NCBI GenBank assembly: GCA_000165345.1
Contig: CM000433.1
Location: 192,001-256,000 of the forward strand
Length of the DNA stretch: 64,000 bases
Direction of reading: 5' to 3'
The notes under the pieces: model-generated
What the model saw: only the letters and a program-made list of their open reading frames with translations
Databases searched by the model: none
Told to the model about the DNA's origin: nothing
In this document: positions 1 to 7,538 of the stretch, piece after piece
Numbering within the stretch: position 1 is the first letter of the stretch
How the letters are laid out: each line of letters opens with the position of its first letter
Translations under genes and position numbers: made by a program

Positions 1-3000
1 GCCATATTTGTATAACATTGGGGAACTAAGTTATCATTGGATTTATTATGATTAGGATTACTTTCCGCTTTATTTTCAAGATTTCCATAGAAATTAGCAT
101 TAAAGAAGTCAACTTGAGGATCTTGACCAGAATAATTACCCTCGCTTCCTAGAGTTATTTTTCTTGTAACAACCATATCCTCAAAGTTTGACTTTTTCTT
201 CATCTTAAGGATCTTTTTCTGTTCCTTTTCTTGTTTTTCTTTCATTTCTTTTTCTTCTTTAATGATCATTTCCTTAGTCTTCAAAGCTGACCATGCTGTG
301 TGGTTGTCTGGAGGACCAGGATCATACAAAGGATCTAAAGATAATTTGAATTCCAATAAAGTCAAATAAGCATTAATTCTTTCTTCAAGTTCTGAGCTTC
401 TATCGAATAATGTATCCTTTCCCAATTTTTGTCTGTTTAATACAATATTTTCTTCAACTGAAACTGATATTGACTCTTCTAATTTTTCAACAGCTCTTCC
501 TTGCAGCGGTGGTTCTATGATCAAATCCTGGAAGATATTTTCTGGTTTTGATCCACAGAATGTTCTCCATTTATAGGGATTATTTAAATCATATGTGATC
601 AAAGCAGGGTGGTGATTGCCCAGATTACCCCAAACTTGCCTATTATTAAAAACCAATTCAATTGTACTATAGGGTACATATGAAATAAGTTCTGGAGTCA
701 AAAATCTTTTATCTGGAATAATGGGTATATTCTTAATGTATTCTGTGATAACTTTTTTAATAATATCTAAACTAGTATTTTGGAACTTAATTTTGTCAGA
801 TTTTCGATTGCCAATATCTTCTTCATCTTCTTCAGCAGGATTATTGTATTCTACCTCTTTTGGATCAATTTTTATGTCTGGAACCAAAAATTCACCCCAA
901 ATATCTATACCCATGTTTTCATTGGCATGCGTTTCAACATATTTAACTTGCCCTGTTTGTTTCAACCATTCAAACCATTGCTGCAAATATAGCCCGTTGT
1001 AGTATTCTCTTTCCTTCTCAAACATTTCGACCCTTGAGCTATCGTCAGGAACTTCTACATCATTATTATCATTATTTACTGACGGCATGACCTCTGCATT
1101 TTGTTGAAATGGATTTCTCATTGAATAATACGGATCTATTCCATACCTACAAGGAAGTACATATCTTTGTTTATTTGTAACTTCCCAAAATTGAACATGA
1201 CCAAATCTGTGTCTAGTCATGACCCACATATGTTCTAGCGTCCCATTTTCGATTGTACCTTTACATACATATGCATCGAATCCGATCCCTAATAAACAAC
1301 TACAAAACATTAATACATGATCTCCAATACTTCCCTTTTTTGATAATAAGAACAAATTAGGAGGAGTAAGTTCTGGAATCTTCCCTGGTGGTTTAATTTG
1401 ACTTTCCAATGTTATATACATAAAATTGTTAATCCAATGCAACAAACTTCCTTCATTTGATATCAAATTTGGAACTGCAATAGGAGATATATATGAACAT
1501 AATGGAAAAATCTCTTCAGTTTGTGGATGTCTCTGTAATACATTGAAATTTCTTTTATCAGGCGCAGATGAAAACCATTGCTTATAAATCCCTTTCCATT
1601 TGTGAAAATCACGGTTCCATCTATTTCCTAGTTGTTTCCAAATATTGCTGATTGCTTTAGTTGATGGTGGAGCAGGAATCACAACATCAGCAGGGAATGG
1701 TGGAATAAAGAACATCTCAAAATGAATACTTGGTTTTATAACACTCTTCCCAAATCCTTTTGATTGTAGTAACATATTCATATTGAGTACTAAAGTATTA
1801 TAGGGAAGTGTATATAAAGTATTGTTGACAAAAATATTATCATCGTTTTCAGCTCTGTCACCTTCTTGATCAAAATTTGGTTTCCCATCAGCTCTTCTAG
1901 ATCGTTTATCTATTAACCCTTCAGCTAAACATCTAAAATCTTCTTTTCCAAGGGTGTAAATTTTATTTAGATTGACTTCTCCTGATCCCAATAAGATGGA
2001 TGATGTATCACTTCTATTCCAAACTTCAATCTTTAATGGGCCTTTACAGAGTAAGTCGATCGGTAAACATTTTCTCCTAAAGCTTGGAATCAAAAGTTCT
2101 CTTTGATCCAAAATTCTTACAGGAAAGTACAAATTTTGGTTATATACTGGCCTCCTTGTTTTTTCTCTGACTGAAGATGTATTAACAACTCCATCCCAAG
2201 TAACTTTTACTATAGGGTCAGAAGTACCCGTTACTCCATCTGCAGCAGCTAAATTATCACACTTGAAGAGCCTAAAGACCAAATACCTTTCATTTATATT
2301 TAACTGAGAAACCAATGCTGCTCCTGAAGCAACTTGAGACGGCCTACTTCTAATATTTTCATTAGGTTGGCCTGTGCTCTTTGAATAGCAAAAAACATTA
2401 CCAATGATTTCCCCTCCAACAATCTTGTAAATATCGATTGTTATTCTCTTAATTATCGTTTTAACTAAGGGATAACTTTCTACAGATGCTAAAGAAATCA
2501 TTGCAGCTCCTATTACAGAAGGTCCAAATTTTAAATAAGCTAACACTTCTACTATTATATATGCATTTCTTAACTGACATCTCGTTCCAGTAAATACAAA
2601 CTCGCAAACTGACTTCCAATAACCTCCAGTAGAATATGGAGTAATCATAGTTTCTGCATTGATAAATATTAATGTTTAAAGAAATTTATTACATTTCAAC
2701 TTACTCCTAGAAGACATTCCTGAAGTTATATCATTATTTAAAGGTACCTTTAGTCTCAAAAATTTGGGTGCTTTTTTAATTTCAATAGGAAGTTTCTTAT
2801 TAGGAATAAAACTCCAATTTTCCAAGGAAATATCAAAATCAAAAATTTCTTGTAACTGTAAAGTTACTCTGCTTCTATGCACTTCAAAACTTTTTTGGTT
2901 AAGATCTTTACGAGGTTTTCCATCCTTTCCCAAAGGTGCAGGAAGATGCTTTTTAAACATTAAATGAGTTTCTGGATCGTTTTCCAGTACATCTTTGAGT

Positions 3001-3759
3001 GTAAGTTTGACTGAAGCAAGCAGTTGGTTGAAAGTAAAGGTTCCAATTGTCCAGAGCTTAATGGATATTTGAAACATCTCTAATTCAGAATACGATATAT
3101 ATAAGATCTTTTTTGGCCAAACGATAATCGGGAAAGTTAATACTTTTACTTCTCCTGGTTTTAATAAAGTCGCAGCTGTATAAACCATCATTCTCTTTAA
3201 AGTTCCTTCGTAGTTTCTCTCTGGATTAACATGCCCAAATTCAATAACATAGAAGAATTCTTGTGGTGTATTTTCTAGATTTTCACTAGTATGAATAAAA
3301 AAAGAAGCTTCCCATACTCTGAGTTTCTTCATATAATCAACCTCGAATTCAAATCGTTTTTGCAGAAATCTGGATTCATCAACTTTTTGTTGCTCAACAT
3401 CATATTCATCAAAATCGTCCTCCGCAGCAGCATCAAAAGCTTCTGAATCTTCGCGTTCATCATCTGAGTCATGTTTTTTTTCCATTTCAATATCTTGTCC
3501 CATTGGTTTACCTATTTTTTTTTGACTTCTGTAACCCTTCAAATCGAATAAAGGAACTTCAAATCTACTTTGGTCTAAAAGATAAAATATAATTGATCTA
3601 TTTCAACTAATTCAAAGTAAACTTACCAATCACATTTTCTTCAAATTCCACCTCACCTTTGAAGTCTAACCTCCAAATCTCGCCTTCATCAAATCCTGCA
3701 TTTTTAAGCACTTCCTTATTTATTTCTTTTTTGTTTTTCTTATTCTTCTTTTTAACCAT
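1..3759 (-). CDS. Three-exon gene whose 3' end lies beyond the window start: large protein with a C2 domain and a transglutaminase-like (papain-fold) domain, resembling CC2D2A/CEP76. Exons are 3627..3759, 2705..3574 and <1..2653.
   Basis: The ATG is at 3759. Intron 1 (3575..3626) has a GTAAGT donor and TTTTAG acceptor and joins onto the 288-aa ORF in the track. That ORF is followed by an in-frame TAA, then 30 nt, then a long open frame. A 51-nt intron (2654..2704, donor GTAAGT, acceptor CAG) removes the TAA and keeps the frame. The downstream frame stays open to position 1, and no minus-strand ORF is listed there because no stop is reached. C2 signature: DGVTGTSDPIVKVTWDG...RPVYNQNLYFP. Transglutaminase-like core: HVLMFCSCLLGIGFDAYVC...EHMWVMTR. 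Confidence 0.55.
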
Positions 3760-4225: not shown

Positions 4226-5872
4226 ATGCAAAGTAAAGTCATTTTTAGGATCTTGGTATTGATCATTTCGGTGATTGGATCCTTATACTCAATAATTCAA
4301 TTAATGCTAAAGGAGCTATCAAGTAACAAAAATATTCAAGAGGTTAGTCATTCAAGGAGGCTAATAAGTGAACCTTACAGTGAAAGTATTAATGAACAAA
4401 ATGATCAAGATTGGAAAGAACTAAAGCTAATAATTCCAAATCATTCTCAAATTAACCAGCAGGAAAAAAATGGTAATTTGATTGAGTTTAAAGTTTATAT
4501 ATACTCAGCATATTATGATTGGAGAATAGATAGGATACGAATAAATTCACTTATCCCATCGAATTTTTATGATCGAATAGAAATGGAATGTGCAATAATC
4601 TTGGACAAAAATATTTACACAGGAACTATTAAAAAAGTGATTCATAAGGAGCACCATAATAAAGAATATGTATCATCGACTTTACTCTGCGAAATTGCAA
4701 AAAATGAAATTAAATTTGAGGATATTTCAAGGAAAGTTTTGATAACAATTTTGGAAAATGGAAACAGCACAAATAAATCAGAAATATGGATAACTCTAAA
4801 AAAAATTCCAAAAAATAGCTCTAATAATCATGAGCTGACTGTTTGTGTGAGACCTTGGTGGGGAGAGCCAATAAAGAATGGAAACTTGGGAAATAAACAA
4901 AAATTTAACAATTCAGGGTTAATGCTTGAATTTATTAATTCATATTTATTCTTAGGAGCAAATAAATTTTATTTATATCAAAATTACTTGGACATTGACG
5001 AAGATGTAAGAAATATAATAAATTATTATTCTAATATCAAAAATGTTTTGGAAATTATTCCATACTCATTACCAATAATTCCATTTAAACAAGTTTGGGA
5101 TTTCGCACAAACAACAATGATACAGGACTGCCTACTAAGAAATATTGGAAAAACAAAATACTTGTTATTCGTAGATACCGATGAATTTGTATTTCCAAAC
5201 TTGAAAAATTATAACTTAATGGATTTTTTAAATTTATTAGAAGCCAACAATCCTTATTATAAAAACAAAGTCGGGGCAATGTGGATTCCAATGTATTTTC
5301 ATTTTTTAGAGTGGGAATCTGATAAAAATAATTTGAAGAAATATTCAACAATTGAGAAAAAAATTAAGAAAAAGATGGCAAATATTGAGTTTGTTCTATA
5401 TCGTAAAACATGTAGAATGTTAAGTTCTGGAACAAAAAAAAGTGACAAGACGAGAAGAAAAGTTATTATTAGACCTGAAAGAGTTTTGTATATGGGTATA
5501 CATGAAACAGAAGAGATGCTAAGCAAAAAATTTCATTTCATTAGAGCTCCTGTAATTAATGTGGGTGGAGGAAACGAACTAAGTATATATTTACATCATT
5601 ATAGAAAAGCAAAAGGTATTGTAAACAATGATCCCAAACAAAGAGAACTTGTGAATATGTATTTAGAAAATGTTTGTTCAGATAAGCTGTTAGATTCAGG
5701 GGGAGATTCCATTCAAGATGGAGTAATTGTCGACAATACTGTTTGGGAGATATTTGGAACACACTTATACCAGATAATTTTTGAGCATATTAAAGAAATC
5801 CAAGATATGTACACAAATAAGGAAATAATTAATGGAAATAAAAATTTAAGTGTTGAAGAATTACATAATTAA
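4226..5872 (+). CDS. Type II membrane protein with a glycosyltransferase family 92 (DUF23)-like domain
   Basis: Single 548-aa ORF with a true ATG. There is an N-terminal hydrophobic anchor (FRILVLIISVIGSLYSII). The segment LMLEFINSYLFLGANKFYLYQNY...AQTTMIQDCLLRNIGKTKYLLFVDTDEFVFP matches the GT92 core (EWIEYH..G...FY.Y ... Q..A.NDC..R....KY..F.D.DEF..P). Confidence 0.5.
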   Translation: MQSKVIFRILVLIISVIGSLYSIIQLMLKELSSNKNIQEVSHSRRLISEPYSESINEQNDQDWKELKLIIPNHSQINQQEKNGNLIEFKVYIYSAYYDWRIDRIRINSLIPSNFYDRIEMECAIILDKNIYTGTIKKVIHKEHHNKEYVSSTLLCEIAKNEIKFEDISRKVLITILENGNSTNKSEIWITLKKIPKNSSNNHELTVCVRPWWGEPIKNGNLGNKQKFNNSGLMLEFINSYLFLGANKFYLYQNYLDIDEDVRNIINYYSNIKNVLEIIPYSLPIIPFKQVWDFAQTTMIQDCLLRNIGKTKYLLFVDTDEFVFPNLKNYNLMDFLNLLEANNPYYKNKVGAMWIPMYFHFLEWESDKNNLKKYSTIEKKIKKKMANIEFVLYRKTCRMLSSGTKKSDKTRRKVIIRPERVLYMGIHETEEMLSKKFHFIRAPVINVGGGNELSIYLHHYRKAKGIVNNDPKQRELVNMYLENVCSDKLLDSGGDSIQDGVIVDNTVWEIFGTHLYQIIFEHIKEIQDMYTNKEIINGNKNLSVEELHN

Positions 5873-5924: not shown

Positions 5925-7538
5925 TTAATTTGGTTTTTCTAGTTCTGAAACATTATGTGGATGGTTCAATAAGATGTGCCTAAAAAAGGAAAAGAAGCAA
6001 TCAATAGCTAACAGAATGATTACAATCCAAGTCAATCGGTTAGCATGTGTAGTTTGATACTCTTCGGTAATAACTTTCAAGAGTTCTTGCATCATTACTA
6101 TTCGTCTGTTAAGGACTTGAAGCCTCTCGGAAATTTCCAAGTATTCTTGGAGATTCCTCCAAACTGAATGAAATTTATAATTATGCCAAAAAATTTCAGG
6201 TATATCAAGAAAATCCTCAACTAAATTAACTGAAATTTGATAAGAATACAATTCAGAAAATCTTTTCCTTACTTGAGGAACCTCTACCTTAAATTCCTCT
6301 TCAATAACGCTAGAAGCTCCAACCTGGGCAAGTTTTAGTGGCAAATATTTAATGTTTTCAACACAATCCTCAATGAAGTCTTCAAACAAAGAAAGTCTTA
6401 TACTCTGACCAATTGCAAGGGAGGCTGCAAGTTTTTCCTCTGAGCTTCTAGTTTTCAAAGTAACAATATCAGAAATTACTTTCCGGTTATTTCTATAAAA
6501 TCTGCTGTATGCAAAATTGCCATAATTAAAAAGCATAGTGTAGTACTGACAATTTTTGGAGTATTTTCCAACAAACCCCCCAAATGAATATAGAGAGAGG
6601 AATGTAATAATATCTTCAAACCTTTCATCTGAATGCTTTGGAGAGTTCAAATGCGTTAGAGAGTCTGATGTAACTTCTTCATTGCTCCAAGCGACGATTA
6701 CTCCATTTTTAAATATAAAAATAGGGTTTTCAAGCCTTTTCCAATAATTTTCATCGTTCGAATAGCACTCCCCTCGTTCTATTATTTCGTCATTGTAAAT
6801 ATCTTCAAGTTTAGACGGAATTACGGGTTTTGATGGATTTTCATTCTGAAATAAAGAATATTCTTCATAACTGGAGTATTGTTTTGAATATCTGGAATCT
6901 AATAATTTTGCTCTATCTTCGATATTAGAGAATTTTTTTTCAGACCCTTTCCAATTGGTCATTTCATCACAACCAACCATGTGGTTTTTAGGATTATCCT
7001 CAATTGTACGCCTTCTACCAGACCTTCCGAGTATCATTTTAATTGACGGATATATACCAGCAGGAAAAAGAACCTTTCCTAGTCGCCCTTGAGTTGCCCA
7101 GGTAATTTCAATTTTATCGAAATATGGGTTTAAATCAAAGACTAATATACTTTTTTCCTTATCCACGTACCAGTGACAATAGTTATGTTTGTCAAGGGCG
7201 GATCTAATACTCTCTAAATTGTATCCTTCACACAAACAAAACCCTCGAATTACATTAAAGCTTTCTGATAACTCTGGGTATTGAAATTTAGGAGATTTAC
7301 TCTCTATTGGATTTATTGAGCCATTTCTATTTGAAAATTCGGATGCTTCTGAACTAAATTTAGTGCTACGCCATTTAGAAGATCTCCATCCCCTTCTTTC
7401 TGCTCTACTAGTAAAGTTTGTTCTATTTGATGCTATATTTGAATAGTTTGTTCTCTCATTGGGTGAACAATTATTATTAAATTGGCTACCTGCTATAATT
7501 TTGCCTTCTAAGTAATTATTTACTTTAGGTGTATCCAT
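5925..7538 (-). CDS. RMD1/Sif2-family protein (DUF155) with a C-terminal transmembrane helix
   Basis: 537-aa ORF with an ATG start. The DUF155-like core is IFIFKNGVIVAWSNEEVTSDSL...LKLAQVGASSVIEEEF. The C-terminal hydrophobic segment WIVIILLAIDCFFSFF is typical of RMD1/RMD8 proteins. Confidence 0.45.
   Translation of the reverse strand: MDTPKVNNYLEGKIIAGSQFNNNCSPNERTNYSNIASNRTNFTSRAERRGWRSSKWRSTKFSSEASEFSNRNGSINPIESKSPKFQYPELSESFNVIRGFCLCEGYNLESIRSALDKHNYCHWYVDKEKSILVFDLNPYFDKIEITWATQGRLGKVLFPAGIYPSIKMILGRSGRRRTIEDNPKNHMVGCDEMTNWKGSEKKFSNIEDRAKLLDSRYSKQYSSYEEYSLFQNENPSKPVIPSKLEDIYNDEIIERGECYSNDENYWKRLENPIFIFKNGVIVAWSNEEVTSDSLTHLNSPKHSDERFEDIITFLSLYSFGGFVGKYSKNCQYYTMLFNYGNFAYSRFYRNNRKVISDIVTLKTRSSEEKLAASLAIGQSIRLSLFEDFIEDCVENIKYLPLKLAQVGASSVIEEEFKVEVPQVRKRFSELYSYQISVNLVEDFLDIPEIFWHNYKFHSVWRNLQEYLEISERLQVLNRRIVMMQELLKVITEEYQTTHANRLTWIVIILLAIDCFFSFFRHILLNHPHNVSELEKPN

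What the first reader, a model, noticed from the sequence alone, without database searches (positions are those of the whole stretch)
1..3759. Large C2 + transglutaminase-like protein with CC2D2A/CEP76-like architecture in an organism that otherwise looks Cryptosporidium-like
The gene encodes a canonical C2 beta-sandwich signature (SDPIVKVTWDG...RPVYNQNLYFP), followed about 250 residues later by a papain/transglutaminase-like Cys-His core (MFCSCLLGIGFDAYVC...EHMWVMTR). That combination and order is what defines the ciliary transition-zone and centriolar CC2D2A/CEP76 group. Its presence in a compact apicomplexan-like genome is notable. Either this organism retains basal-body or centriole machinery, or the architecture is used for a non-ciliary membrane function.
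Basis: partly seen in the sequence, partly recalled or inferred. Interest (0 to 1): 0.55.

Follow-up and report, generated by a model that had tools for sequence, protein, structure and literature searches.

The report
Cryptosporidium triple-C2, dead-transglutaminase scaffold gene
This is the first three quarters of the annotated Cryptosporidium parvum gene cgd5_780, a large and probably non-enzymatic scaffold protein related to the cilium/centriole proteins CEP76 and CC2D2A; its presence in a parasite without cilia or centrioles was already recorded, so it is a mildly interesting known gene rather than a discovery.

Summary
Window 1-3759 (minus strand) carries three exons joined by two canonical GTAAGT...AG introns. 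They encode the first 1,218 of 1,624 residues of C. parvum CPHLJ_5g780 (= cgd5_780). Pfam finds a C2 domain (E 1e-11), a CEP76 peptidase-like (TGL) domain (E 2e-18) and, beyond the window, CEP76_C.

- **Architecture.** Profile comparison shows two more divergent C2 domains upstream. The order is C2-C2-C2-TGL-CEP76_C, with large insertions.
- **Catalytic triad.** It is degenerate. The catalytic Cys position is Ile777, while His809 and Glu825 are kept.
- **Distribution.** Collinear homologues occur in Eimeria, Theileria, Babesia, Hepatocystis, Chromera, Vitrella and a gregarine. Looser relatives occur in jakobids, metamonads, CRuMs and Rhizaria.
- **Family placement.** It lacks the CEP76-specific and CC2D2A-specific Pfam domains. 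Canonical CEP76 matches it only in the TGL domain.
- **Prior record.** Suvorova et al. 2015 already listed cgd5_780 as the Cryptosporidium CEP76 hit.

It is most likely a non-catalytic adaptor with a cilium-independent role. Orthology to canonical CC2D2A could not be tested.

The parts
3627..3759 (-). Exon 1 (aa 1-44 plus the first base of codon 45). It encodes a Lys-rich N-terminus and the conserved GFDEGEIWRLDF motif.
   Evidence: ATG at 3759 is the first after an upstream stop. The donor is G|GTAAGT. The product is identical to the P0001 N-terminus.
3575..3626 (-). Intron 1, 52 nt, GTAAGT...TTTTAG.
   Evidence: Sequence read. Removing it restores the frame and gives ENVI-D-QSRF, as in the annotated proteins of five Cryptosporidium species.
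2705..3574 (-). Exon 2 (aa 45-335).
   Evidence: Open frame 3602..2679; splice sites read.
2654..2704 (-). Intron 2, 51 nt, GTAAGT...TGCAG. It contains the in-frame TAA that splits the ORF.
   Evidence: The second C2-like domain runs across this junction, which ties exons 2 and 3 into one protein.
1..2653 (-). Exon 3, partial (aa 335-1218). The ORF runs off the window start; 406 more residues lie outside.
   Evidence: 891-codon open frame; full length of 1,624 aa from P0001.
2808..3365 (-). C2a: first, divergent C2-like domain (aa 115-300).
   Evidence: hhalign against the first C2 of the wider family gives 98.8% probability, E 4e-17. That domain in Andalucia P0092 is a Pfam C2 (E 5.7e-12). 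Pfam does not detect it directly in C. parvum.
2307..2807 (-). C2b: second, divergent C2-like domain (aa 301-450), interrupted by intron 2.
   Evidence: hhalign against the second C2 of the wider family gives 97.9% probability, E 3e-13. In Andalucia this domain is a Pfam C2 (E 4.4e-13).
1827..2306 (-). C2c: canonical C2 domain (aa 451-610), containing SDPIVKVTWDG...RPVYNQNLYFP.
   Evidence: Pfam PF00168 E 1e-11. phmmer against PDB finds synaptotagmin-3/7 C2 domains, E 5e-5. hhalign to the family's third C2 gives 99.9%.
1122..1589 (-). Transglutaminase-like (papain-fold) domain, N-terminal part with the core helix and beta-strands (aa 690-845).
   Evidence: Pfam PF24656 aa 768-835, E 1.9e-18. 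The AF2 model has pLDDT 93 and pTM 0.87. Foldseek PDB top hits are DRC7 and axonemal TGL proteins, then LapG, PNGase, Rad4 and putative cysteine proteases.
1326..1328 (-). Codon for Ile777, which occupies the catalytic-cysteine position.
   Evidence: HMMER alignment to solved DRC7 chains puts the DRC7 Cys (kGnCfDf) on this column. It is the first residue of core helix 88-101 in the model. The column has 0 Cys in 99 large homologues and Cys in 2 of 5 canonical CEP76. Codon verified.
1230..1232 (-). Codon for His809, the retained catalytic-His position.
   Evidence: Aligned to the DRC7 motif vHcWV. His occurs in 89 of 99 large homologues. Verified.
1182..1184 (-). Codon for Glu825, the retained acidic triad position (FWE).
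   Evidence: Aligned to the DRC7 motif fiEpstG. Glu or Asp occurs in 98 of 99 large homologues. Verified.
678..1121 (-). Lineage-specific insertion that splits the TGL domain (aa 846-993).
   Evidence: Pfam PF24656 matches in two stretches: profile positions 8-78 at aa 768-835 and 81-121 at aa 994-1033. The segment finds only a few apicomplexan homologues by BLAST.
558..677 (-). TGL domain, C-terminal part (aa 994-1033).
   Evidence: Pfam PF24656 profile positions 81-121, E 9e-6, on this sub-sequence.
282..557 (-). Conserved post-TGL segment (aa 1034-1125). It is probably the start of the C-terminal alpha+beta extension, whose other half is CEP76_C at aa 1536-1600 outside the window.
   Evidence: Conserved in all collinear homologues. 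In Vitrella P0093 the BLAST match to C. parvum aa 986-1125 (its residues 945-1058) overlaps its contiguous CEP76_C match at 1015-1152, profile 8-138. In C. parvum only profile 74-138 matches, at aa 1536-1600. The split-domain reading is an inference.
1..281 (-). Start of a K/E/N-rich low-complexity region (aa 1126-1218; it continues to about aa 1490 outside the window).
   Evidence: Read from the sequence. Poorly conserved among Cryptosporidium species.

Best explanation
The region is the 5' three quarters of a real, conserved, three-exon protein-coding gene, C. parvum cgd5_780 / CPHLJ_5g780. Its 1,624-aa product is built as C2a-C2b-C2c, a transglutaminase-like papain-fold domain, and a CEP76_C-type C-terminal extension. 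Long lineage-specific insertions interrupt the TGL domain and, by inference, the C-terminal extension.

The TGL domain keeps its fold and the His and Glu of the triad, but has Ile in place of the nucleophilic Cys. It is therefore most likely a binding module and not an enzyme (inferred). The three C2 beta-sandwiches are the likely membrane- or protein-docking part (inferred from what C2 domains generally do). Together they would form an adaptor linking a membrane or scaffold surface to a peptide ligand.

The protein belongs to the CEP76/CC2D2A/DRC7 TGL superfamily. It sits in a group of large multi-C2 proteins that is distinct from canonical CEP76. Its collinear homologues are found across Apicomplexa and chromerids, including Cryptosporidium, Theileria and Babesia, which have neither flagella nor reported centrioles. 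Its function is therefore independent of cilia. My best guess, with no direct evidence, is a role at the nuclear-envelope microtubule-organising centre or in daughter-cell assembly during division.
For: - **Gene model and identity:**
- **Domains:** Pfam C2, PF24656 and PF24652. The two extra C2 domains come from hhalign (98.8% and 97.9%), anchored on Pfam-detectable C2 domains in Andalucia.
- **TGL fold:** AF2 pLDDT 93. Foldseek hits DRC7, LapG, PNGase and Rad4.
- **Dead nucleophile:** the DRC7 alignment, the helix N-terminus position in the model, and column statistics of 0 Cys in 99 large homologues against 2 of 5 in canonical CEP76.
- **Conservation:** the four other Cryptosporidium species aligned are 56-87% identical to the C. 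parvum protein over the full length.
- **Homologues:** 556 with E <= 1e-3 and 72 with E <= 1e-30. Collinear matches over all domains occur in Eimeria, Theileria, Babesia, Hepatocystis, Vitrella, Chromera and Digyalum.
- **Distinct from canonical CEP76:** Percolomonas CEP76 has CEP76_N + CEP76-C2 + full-length PF24656 and PF24652. It matches the C. parvum profile only in the TGL domain at E 1.7e-18. The CEP76 split in the NJ tree has 79/80 bootstrap support.
- **Aflagellate, acentriolar hosts:**
- **Prior record and likely paralogy:** cgd5_780 is the best Cryptosporidium hit to human CEP76, at only e-12, whereas T. gondii 226610 scores e-59. A later review lists no Plasmodium partner for 226610. 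This suggests canonical CEP76 is a separate gene that Cryptosporidium and Plasmodium have lost.
- **Expression of the Plasmodium counterpart:** the P. berghei gene annotated 'CEP76, putative' is transcribed in blood stages, ookinetes and oocysts.
Against: - No localisation, interaction or knockout data exist for this protein in any species within the literature I could search.
- The clade of collinear homologues has only 33/80 NJ bootstrap support on the TGL domain alone.
- I could not obtain a bona fide CC2D2A sequence, so the relation to canonical CC2D2A is open.
- The C2c loop-3 acidic residues look degenerate (WNRSD against the synaptotagmin DFD; read by eye, since the alignment stops before loop 3). 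Ca2+-dependent lipid binding is therefore not assured.
- A Ser, or a non-canonical nucleophile elsewhere, cannot be formally excluded without biochemistry.
- The 1,026-aa structure model failed (pLDDT 32), so domain packing is unknown.
Confidence: 0.7

Rival explanations
1. It is the much-diverged orthologue of CC2D2A/MKS6, the transition-zone protein. On this reading it was kept after the cilium and the rest of the MKS module were lost, and was re-used for a non-ciliary task.
For: - The architecture is of the CC2D2A type: upstream divergent C2, a PKC-type C2, then an inactive TGL (Zhang & Aravind 2012).
- The C2-to-TGL start spacing is about 300 aa here, against about 280 aa in human CC2D2A (residues 1040 and 1320, as quoted) and about 250 aa in canonical CEP76.
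- All members of the CC2D2A clade are reported inactive, as are all 99 large homologues here.
- The looser relatives occur in flagellated protists from several supergroups.
Against: - No match to the CC2D2A-specific Pfam models (PF15625 CC2D2AN-C2, PF17661) in any of about 40 homologues scanned.
- Barker et al. 2014 found no CC2D2A in P. falciparum or T. gondii.
- Independent annotation pipelines name these proteins CEP76 and not CC2D2A.
- Vitrella alone has three paralogues, so one-to-one orthology is not obvious.
Confidence: 0.3
2. It is the true CEP76 orthologue and does the CEP76 job, restraining re-duplication of the centrosome-equivalent (the centrin-positive MTOC).
For: - It is the best Cryptosporidium hit to human CEP76.
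- The Plasmodium-lineage counterpart and metagenomic members are annotated 'CEP76, putative'.
- It has PF24656 and PF24652.
- C. parvum has duplicating centrin-1 foci.
Against: - It lacks CEP76_N (PF24654) and CEP76-C2 (PF15627), both present in a protist CEP76.
- It has three other C2 domains instead.
- Similarity to CEP76 is confined to the TGL domain.
- CEP76 separates from the large proteins at 79/80 bootstrap.
- T. gondii has a far better CEP76 match (e-59 against e-12/e-13), for which a later review lists no Plasmodium partner. This points to paralogy.
Confidence: 0.12
3. It is an active cysteine peptidase or transglutaminase that uses the Cys-His pair named by the first reader (C785 or C787 with H809).
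For: C785 is conserved in 75 of 99 large homologues, and His809 and Glu825 are retained.
Against: - C785 corresponds to the non-catalytic Cys of the LLCS motif, which DRC7 also has in addition to its catalytic Cys.
- C785 lies 8 residues (about two helical turns) into the core helix. The nucleophile of papain-like folds sits at the helix N-terminus, which here is Ile777.
- The literature classes such versions as inactive.
Confidence: 0.03
4. The three exons are separate genes, or the gene model is an annotation artefact.
For: No transcript data were available here. Exon 1 is short and Lys-rich.
Against: - Both introns have canonical GTAAGT...AG boundaries and sizes of 51-52 nt, and both restore the frame.
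- The same joined protein is annotated in five Cryptosporidium species, with conserved residues on both sides of each junction.
- The C2b domain spans junction 2.
Confidence: 0.03

Closest known systems
CC2D2A / MKS6 (ciliary transition-zone MKS-module protein; Zhang & Aravind 2012 architecture CC + CC2D2AN-C2 + CC2D2AC-C2 + TGL)
   Same: Both are large proteins (about 1,600 aa). Both have upstream divergent C2 domain(s), a PKC-type C2 about 280-300 aa before an inactive TGL domain, and a shared C-terminal alpha+beta extension. Both are predicted to be adaptors and not enzymes.
   Different: There is no Pfam match to CC2D2AN-C2 (PF15625) or DUF5523 (PF17661). No long N-terminal coiled-coil region is evident. 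There are three C2 domains instead of the two described. Big insertions lie in the TGL domain and, by inference, the C-terminal extension. The host has no cilium and, according to published surveys, apicomplexans lack the MKS module.
CEP76 (centriolar protein; CEP76_N + CEP76-C2 + TGL + CEP76_C)
   Same: Both have a TGL domain of the compact CEP76/CC2D2A type (PF24656) and a CEP76_C match. This protein is the best Cryptosporidium hit to human CEP76, and the Plasmodium-lineage counterpart (Hepatocystis P0011) and the P. berghei gene are annotated as CEP76.
   Different: It is 2.5 times longer and lacks CEP76_N and CEP76-C2. It carries three unrelated-type C2 domains. Its nucleophile is lost, whereas animal and some protist CEP76 proteins keep Cys-His-Glu. 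CEP76 separates from it in the tree at 79/80.
DRC7 / CCDC135 / FAP50 (nexin-dynein regulatory complex subunit 7)
   Same: DRC7 proteins are the closest solved structures to the TGL domain (Foldseek TMq 0.64-0.67; HMMER E 2e-9 to 4e-7). They share the GxxxDxxxLLCSxLxGxGxDAY helix motif.
   Different: [quoted passage not shown]

Membership tests
CEP76/CC2D2A/DRC7 ciliary-type TGL superfamily | Transglutaminase-like papain fold with the family's sequence signature (Pfam PF24656) | tested here: met
   PF24656 E 1.9e-18, above the cut-off. The AF2 model has pLDDT 93, and its best PDB matches are DRC7 TGL domains. A profile search hits solved DRC7 chains at E 2e-9.
CEP76/CC2D2A/DRC7 ciliary-type TGL superfamily | Shared C-terminal alpha+beta extension after the TGL core (Pfam PF24652, CEP76_C) | tested here: met
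   PF24652 E 8.6e-6, 26.1 bits against a 22.5 cut-off, profile positions 74-138 at aa 1536-1600. This lies outside the window, in full-length P0001. The first half is inferred to lie at aa ~1034-1125.
CEP76 (canonical) | CEP76 N-terminal domain (PF24654) | tested here: not met
   No hit in C. parvum, C. ubiquitum or C. serpentis at E <= 0.1. The domain is present in Percolomonas CEP76.
CEP76 (canonical) | CEP76-type C2 domain (PF15627) directly upstream of the TGL domain | tested here: not met
   No hit. A PF00168-type C2 is found instead. PF15627 scores 8.6e-33 in Percolomonas CEP76.
CEP76 (canonical) | One-to-one orthology with human CEP76 (groups with CEP76 in a tree; no second, better CEP76 in related genomes) | tested here: not met
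   Canonical CEP76 sequences split from all large C2-TGL proteins at 79/80 NJ bootstraps. T. gondii 226610 matches human CEP76 at e-59, against e-12 for cgd5_780.
CC2D2A / MKS6 | PKC-type C2 (CC2D2AC-C2, PF00168) about 280 aa upstream of the TGL domain | tested here: met
   PF00168 E 1e-11 at aa 458-522, with the TGL domain from about aa 760. Human coordinates 1040 and 1320 are taken.
CC2D2A / MKS6 | Catalytically inactive TGL domain (nucleophile lost) | tested here: met
   Ile777 occupies the Cys column. The clade is reported to be uniformly inactive.
CC2D2A / MKS6 | CC2D2AN-C2 domain (PF15625) and N-terminal coiled-coil / DUF5523 (PF17661) | tested here: inconclusive
   No Pfam hit to either model in C. 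parvum or in about 40 homologues. Two divergent C2 domains do sit upstream. A profile-profile test against PF15625 itself could not be run.
CC2D2A / MKS6 | Orthology with human CC2D2A in a phylogeny or by reciprocal best hit | not testable with these tools
   No bona fide CC2D2A sequence could be retrieved. The AFDB libraries were unavailable and no supplementary files are held for that paper. A published survey found no CC2D2A in P. falciparum or T. gondii.
CC2D2A / MKS6 | Transition-zone localisation with MKS-module partners (B9D1/2, TMEM67, TCTN) | not testable with these tools
   Cryptosporidium has no flagellum. Only 64 kb of the genome was available, so the absence of partners was not checked here.
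Active TGL peptidases/transglutaminases | Cys-His-Asp/Glu triad with the Cys at the N-terminus of the core helix | tested here: not met
   The triad positions read Ile777-His809-Glu825.

The most novel reading that the evidence does not exclude
The large C2-C2-C2-TGL-CEP76_C proteins would form a fourth ancient branch of the 'ciliary' TGL superfamily, alongside CEP76, CC2D2A and DRC7, that has not been described as such. It would be absent from animals. Its myzozoan members would work at a cilium-derived but non-ciliary structure, such as the nuclear MTOC/centrocone or the apical complex. That would explain why it survives in Cryptosporidium, Theileria and Babesia after flagella and centrioles were lost.
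Probability: 0.25. Interest if true: 0.55.

Novelty: new member of a known kind. Interest (0 to 1): 0.33.

Why it matters
Cryptosporidium has shed flagella, delta- and epsilon-tubulin, and (as far as reported) centrioles. It still keeps and conserves a 1,624-aa protein built from the parts list of cilium and centriole proteins. That makes cgd5_780 a handle on two questions. First, what do 'ciliary' C2-TGL adaptors do when there is no cilium? Second, what is the molecular make-up of the poorly known Cryptosporidium MTOC and division apparatus?

It also cautions against the 'CEP76, putative' label used for the Plasmodium-lineage counterparts (Hepatocystis P0011, P. berghei PBANKA_0102600). This protein is not a canonical CEP76 and is predicted to be non-catalytic. 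The gene and its CEP76 resemblance are already on record, so the gain is refinement and not discovery.

Tried and rejected
- **Word-indexed homologue searches.** Three were run. They returned only Cryptosporidium proteins, one unnamed relative and a few fragments, with no named CC2D2A or CEP76. The exhaustive profile search was needed.
- **PDB search with the whole protein.** phmmer found nothing meaningful.
- **AF2 on aa 100-1125 with a 5-sequence alignment.** It failed (pLDDT 32) and was not used. The TGL domain alone, with 31 sequences, worked.
- **AFDB fold libraries.** Not available, so no structure-based naming against CC2D2A or CEP76 models was possible.
- **Zhang & Aravind supplementary alignments.** Not held.
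- **Direct Pfam scan of the two N-terminal domains.** Even at E <= 10 it gave only noise (FCH, BCAS3). Their C2 nature rests on profile-profile transfer.
- **NJ bootstrap for the collinear group.** Monophyly got only 33/80 on the TGL domain alone. I therefore do not claim a well-supported clade, only a group defined by full-length collinearity and score.
- **Literature searches.** Searches for cgd5_780, PF3D7_0603800 and PBANKA_0102600 gave no functional study. The Toxoplasma conoid proteome paper does not mention the protein.
- **An active Cys-His enzyme.** Considered and rejected; see the rival explanations.


Full report
**Observation**

The - strand of window 1-3759 carries one gene in three pieces.
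- The first ATG after an upstream stop is at 3759.
- The reading frame is interrupted twice, each time by a short segment that starts GTAAGT and ends AG: 3626..3575 (52 nt) and 2704..2654 (51 nt).
- Removing both restores a single frame that runs off the window start.
- The resulting 1,218-residue product is identical, apart from I566M, to residues 1-1218 of the annotated protein CPHLJ_5g780 of Cryptosporidium parvum (1,624 aa).

The window is therefore C. parvum chromosome 5 and the gene is cgd5_780. The last 406 residues lie outside the window. Orthologues of 1,564-1,819 aa, 56-87% identical to the C. parvum protein, are annotated in C. ubiquitum, C. felis, C. bovis and C. serpentis. Residues are conserved on both sides of each splice junction.

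- C2 (PF00168), aa 458-522, E 1e-11.
- CEP76 peptidase-like domain (PF24656), aa 768-835, E 1.9e-18.
- CEP76_C (PF24652), aa 1536-1600, E 8.6e-6, found in the full-length protein only.

**Anatomy**

An exhaustive profile search with aa 100-1125 of five Cryptosporidium orthologues found 556 proteins at E <= 1e-3 and 72 at E <= 1e-30.

Domain-by-domain BLAST shows that about 60 of the listed hits are collinear with the C. parvum protein over every conserved block. These blocks are an N-terminal domain (aa ~115-300), a middle domain (~300-450), the C2 domain, a linker, the TGL domain, a post-TGL block (986-1125) and the C-terminal block.

A second tier of hits shares only C2 + TGL + post-TGL. In one of these, from the jakobid Andalucia godoyi (P0092), Pfam sees three C2 domains. 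I confirmed this on sub-sequences (E 5.7e-12 and 4.4e-13 for the first two).

Profile-profile comparison then links the C. parvum-group domains one to one with those three C2 domains:

| C. parvum-group domain | Wider-family domain | hhalign probability | E-value |
|---|---|---|---|
| N-terminal domain | C2a | 98.8% | 4e-17 |
| Middle domain | C2b | 97.9% | 3e-13 |
| C2 | C2c | 99.9% | 1e-34 |

So the protein is C2a-C2b-C2c-TGL-CEP76_C. The second C2 runs across intron 2, which independently ties exons 2 and 3 together.

The Pfam TGL match is in two stretches, profile 8-78 at aa 768-835 and profile 81-121 at aa 994-1033. A ~148-residue insertion therefore splits the TGL domain. The CEP76_C match covers only the second half of that model. 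In Vitrella P0093 the same model matches contiguously right after the TGL domain. I infer that the K/E/N-rich stretch at aa ~1126-1490 is a second insertion.

**The active site**

A profile of the TGL region (31 diverse homologues) hits solved DRC7 chains in the PDB at E 2e-9 to 4e-7. In the printed alignments:
- the DRC7 catalytic motif kGnCfDf lies on C. parvum KGSIGDH, so the Cys falls on Ile777;
- the DRC7 motif vHcWV lies on EHMWV (His809);
- the DRC7 motif fiEpstG lies on FWEVTNK (Glu825).

An AF2 model of aa 690-845 built with that alignment is confident (pLDDT 93, pTM 0.87). It places Ile777 as the first residue of the core helix, with His809 on the second of the beta-strands that follow the helix and Glu825 immediately after the third. 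Foldseek against the PDB returns DRC7 and axonemal TGL proteins first (TMq 0.64-0.67). After them come LapG, PNGase, CPR-C4, a putative cysteine protease and Rad4, which is the TGL/papain-like fold.

Across the aligned homologues the Ile777 column holds V/P/I/L/A/S/F in 63 collinear homologues and no Cys in 36 second-tier ones. Two of five canonical CEP76 sequences have GDCEDH...DHxWV...FWE, an intact triad. The mapping is therefore sound.

C785 is the conserved Cys of the LLCS motif that DRC7 also has besides its catalytic Cys. This matches what Zhang & Aravind (2012) report for the CC2D2A clade and most CEP76 proteins, which they interpret as peptide-binding modules. It also matches the 2023 papain-like survey.

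**The C2c domain**

This domain aligns with synaptotagmin-3 and -7 C2 domains over strands 1-4 and keeps the two loop-1 aspartates. By eye, loop 3 reads WNRSD where synaptotagmin has DFD. Ca2+ dependence is therefore doubtful. This last point is my reading and not a tool result.

**Who else has it**

Named collinear homologues come from:
- Eimeria intestinalis
- Theileria equi
- Babesia duncani
- Hepatocystis (annotated 'centrosomal protein CEP76, putative')
- Vitrella
- Chromera
- the gregarine-like Digyalum
- metagenomic proteins that JGI labels CEP76

Second-tier members come from Andalucia, Blattamonas, Anaeramoeba (annotated CEP76), Mantamonas, Diphylleia, Lotharella, Selenidium, and two further Vitrella paralogues.

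A canonical CEP76 (Percolomonas, 620 aa) has CEP76_N, CEP76-C2, and full-length PF24656 (E 5e-44) and PF24652 (E 5e-40). It resembles the C. parvum protein only in the TGL domain. In a neighbour-joining tree of the TGL domain, canonical CEP76 separates from all large C2-TGL proteins in 79 of 80 bootstraps. The collinear group itself is recovered in only 33 of 80.

None of about 40 large homologues scanned matches the CEP76-specific models at a significant level. One of the 28 second-tier proteins has a weak CEP76-C2 hit (E 0.0022). None matches the CC2D2A-specific models PF15625 or PF17661.

**Comparison with what is known**

- **CC2D2A by architecture.** The protein is of the CC2D2A type: upstream divergent C2, a PKC-type C2 about 300 aa before an inactive TGL (human: 1040 and 1320).
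- **CEP76 by best hit.** Suvorova et al. 2015 list cgd5_780 as the Cryptosporidium match of human CEP76 at e-12, next to PF3D7_0603800 at e-13 and T. gondii 226610 at e-59. A later review gives 226610 no Plasmodium partner. This suggests the canonical CEP76 of Toxoplasma is a different gene from the one studied here.
- **Published CC2D2A survey.** Barker et al. 2014 found no CC2D2A in P. falciparum or T. gondii.
- **What I could not do.** I could not retrieve a bona fide CC2D2A sequence. The AFDB libraries were unavailable and no supplementary files are held for Zhang & Aravind 2012. Whether the family is a divergent CC2D2A or a separate ancient paralogue remains open. I give the CC2D2A-orthologue reading about 0.3.

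**Function**

No experimental study of this protein was found.
- Cryptosporidium, Theileria and Babesia have no flagella and no reported centrioles, and Cryptosporidium and Theileria have also lost delta- and epsilon-tubulin. Yet all three keep the protein. Its role cannot be ciliary.
- C. parvum does have duplicating centrin-1 foci at the nucleus.
- The P. berghei gene annotated cep76 (PBANKA_0102600) is transcribed in blood stages, ookinetes and oocysts and falls in sporozoites.

Shown: the gene, its domains, the fold, the loss of the nucleophile, and the distribution. Inferred: that it acts as a non-catalytic adaptor, with C2 domains docking to a membrane or scaffold and the dead TGL + CEP76_C binding a peptide ligand. 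Also inferred, more weakly, is a role at the MTOC or in daughter-cell assembly.

**Verdict**

The 'Cys-His core' is a dead active site. The protein is neither a canonical CEP76 nor a demonstrable CC2D2A. Its CEP76-like nature in Cryptosporidium is already in the literature and in precomputed Pfam annotation. It is a modestly interesting, already-annotated member of a known superfamily.

My additions are the triple-C2 architecture, the split domains, the exact triad state and the phyletic pattern. Interest is 0.33.

Noticed in passing
window 4226-5872 (+): An uninterrupted 548-aa ORF next to the gene, with a hydrophobic N-terminus. It matches glycosyltransferase family 92 (PF01697, E 1e-21).
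   Followed up: partly
window 5925-7538 (-): A 537-aa ORF that matches RMND1/DUF155 (PF02582, E 1.4e-30, full profile).
   Followed up: partly
window 1952-1954 (-), codon 566: The window encodes Ile566 where the database C. parvum protein P0001 has Met. This is the only difference in 1,218 residues, so the window comes from a different C. parvum isolate, or a very close relative, than the CPHLJ record.
   Followed up: no
P0121 (2,496 aa) and P0128 (2,409 aa), homologues from the representative search: Two second-tier relatives fuse the C2-TGL module to Neuralized-homology repeats. P0121 has eight stretches (E 3e-115) plus a SPRY domain; P0128 has two stretches. I have not seen this architecture described. 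Their source organisms were not looked up.
   Followed up: no
Vitrella brassicaformis P0012, P0093, P0105: One chromerid genome encodes at least three paralogues of the large C2-TGL family: one collinear with the Cryptosporidium protein and two in a separate subgroup that also holds a Selenidium protein. This points to duplication within the Myzozoa.
   Followed up: partly
P0111 and P0148 (canonical CEP76-like proteins; P0148 from JGI/ENA metagenomes, source of P0111 not looked up): Two of the five canonical CEP76 sequences recovered keep an intact Cys-His-Glu triad (GDCEDH...DHxWV...FWE). The Percolomonas sequences have Phe at the Cys position. Potentially active CEP76 may therefore not be limited to animals, though the source organisms of these two are unknown.
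   Followed up: no
P0007 (1,452 aa, Logan assembly, 4.9-kb contig): An unnamed relative 42% identical to the C. parvum protein (E 2e-201). In the NJ tree it is the sister of the Eimeria protein, next to the Cryptosporidium pair. Its source organism is unidentified.
   Followed up: no
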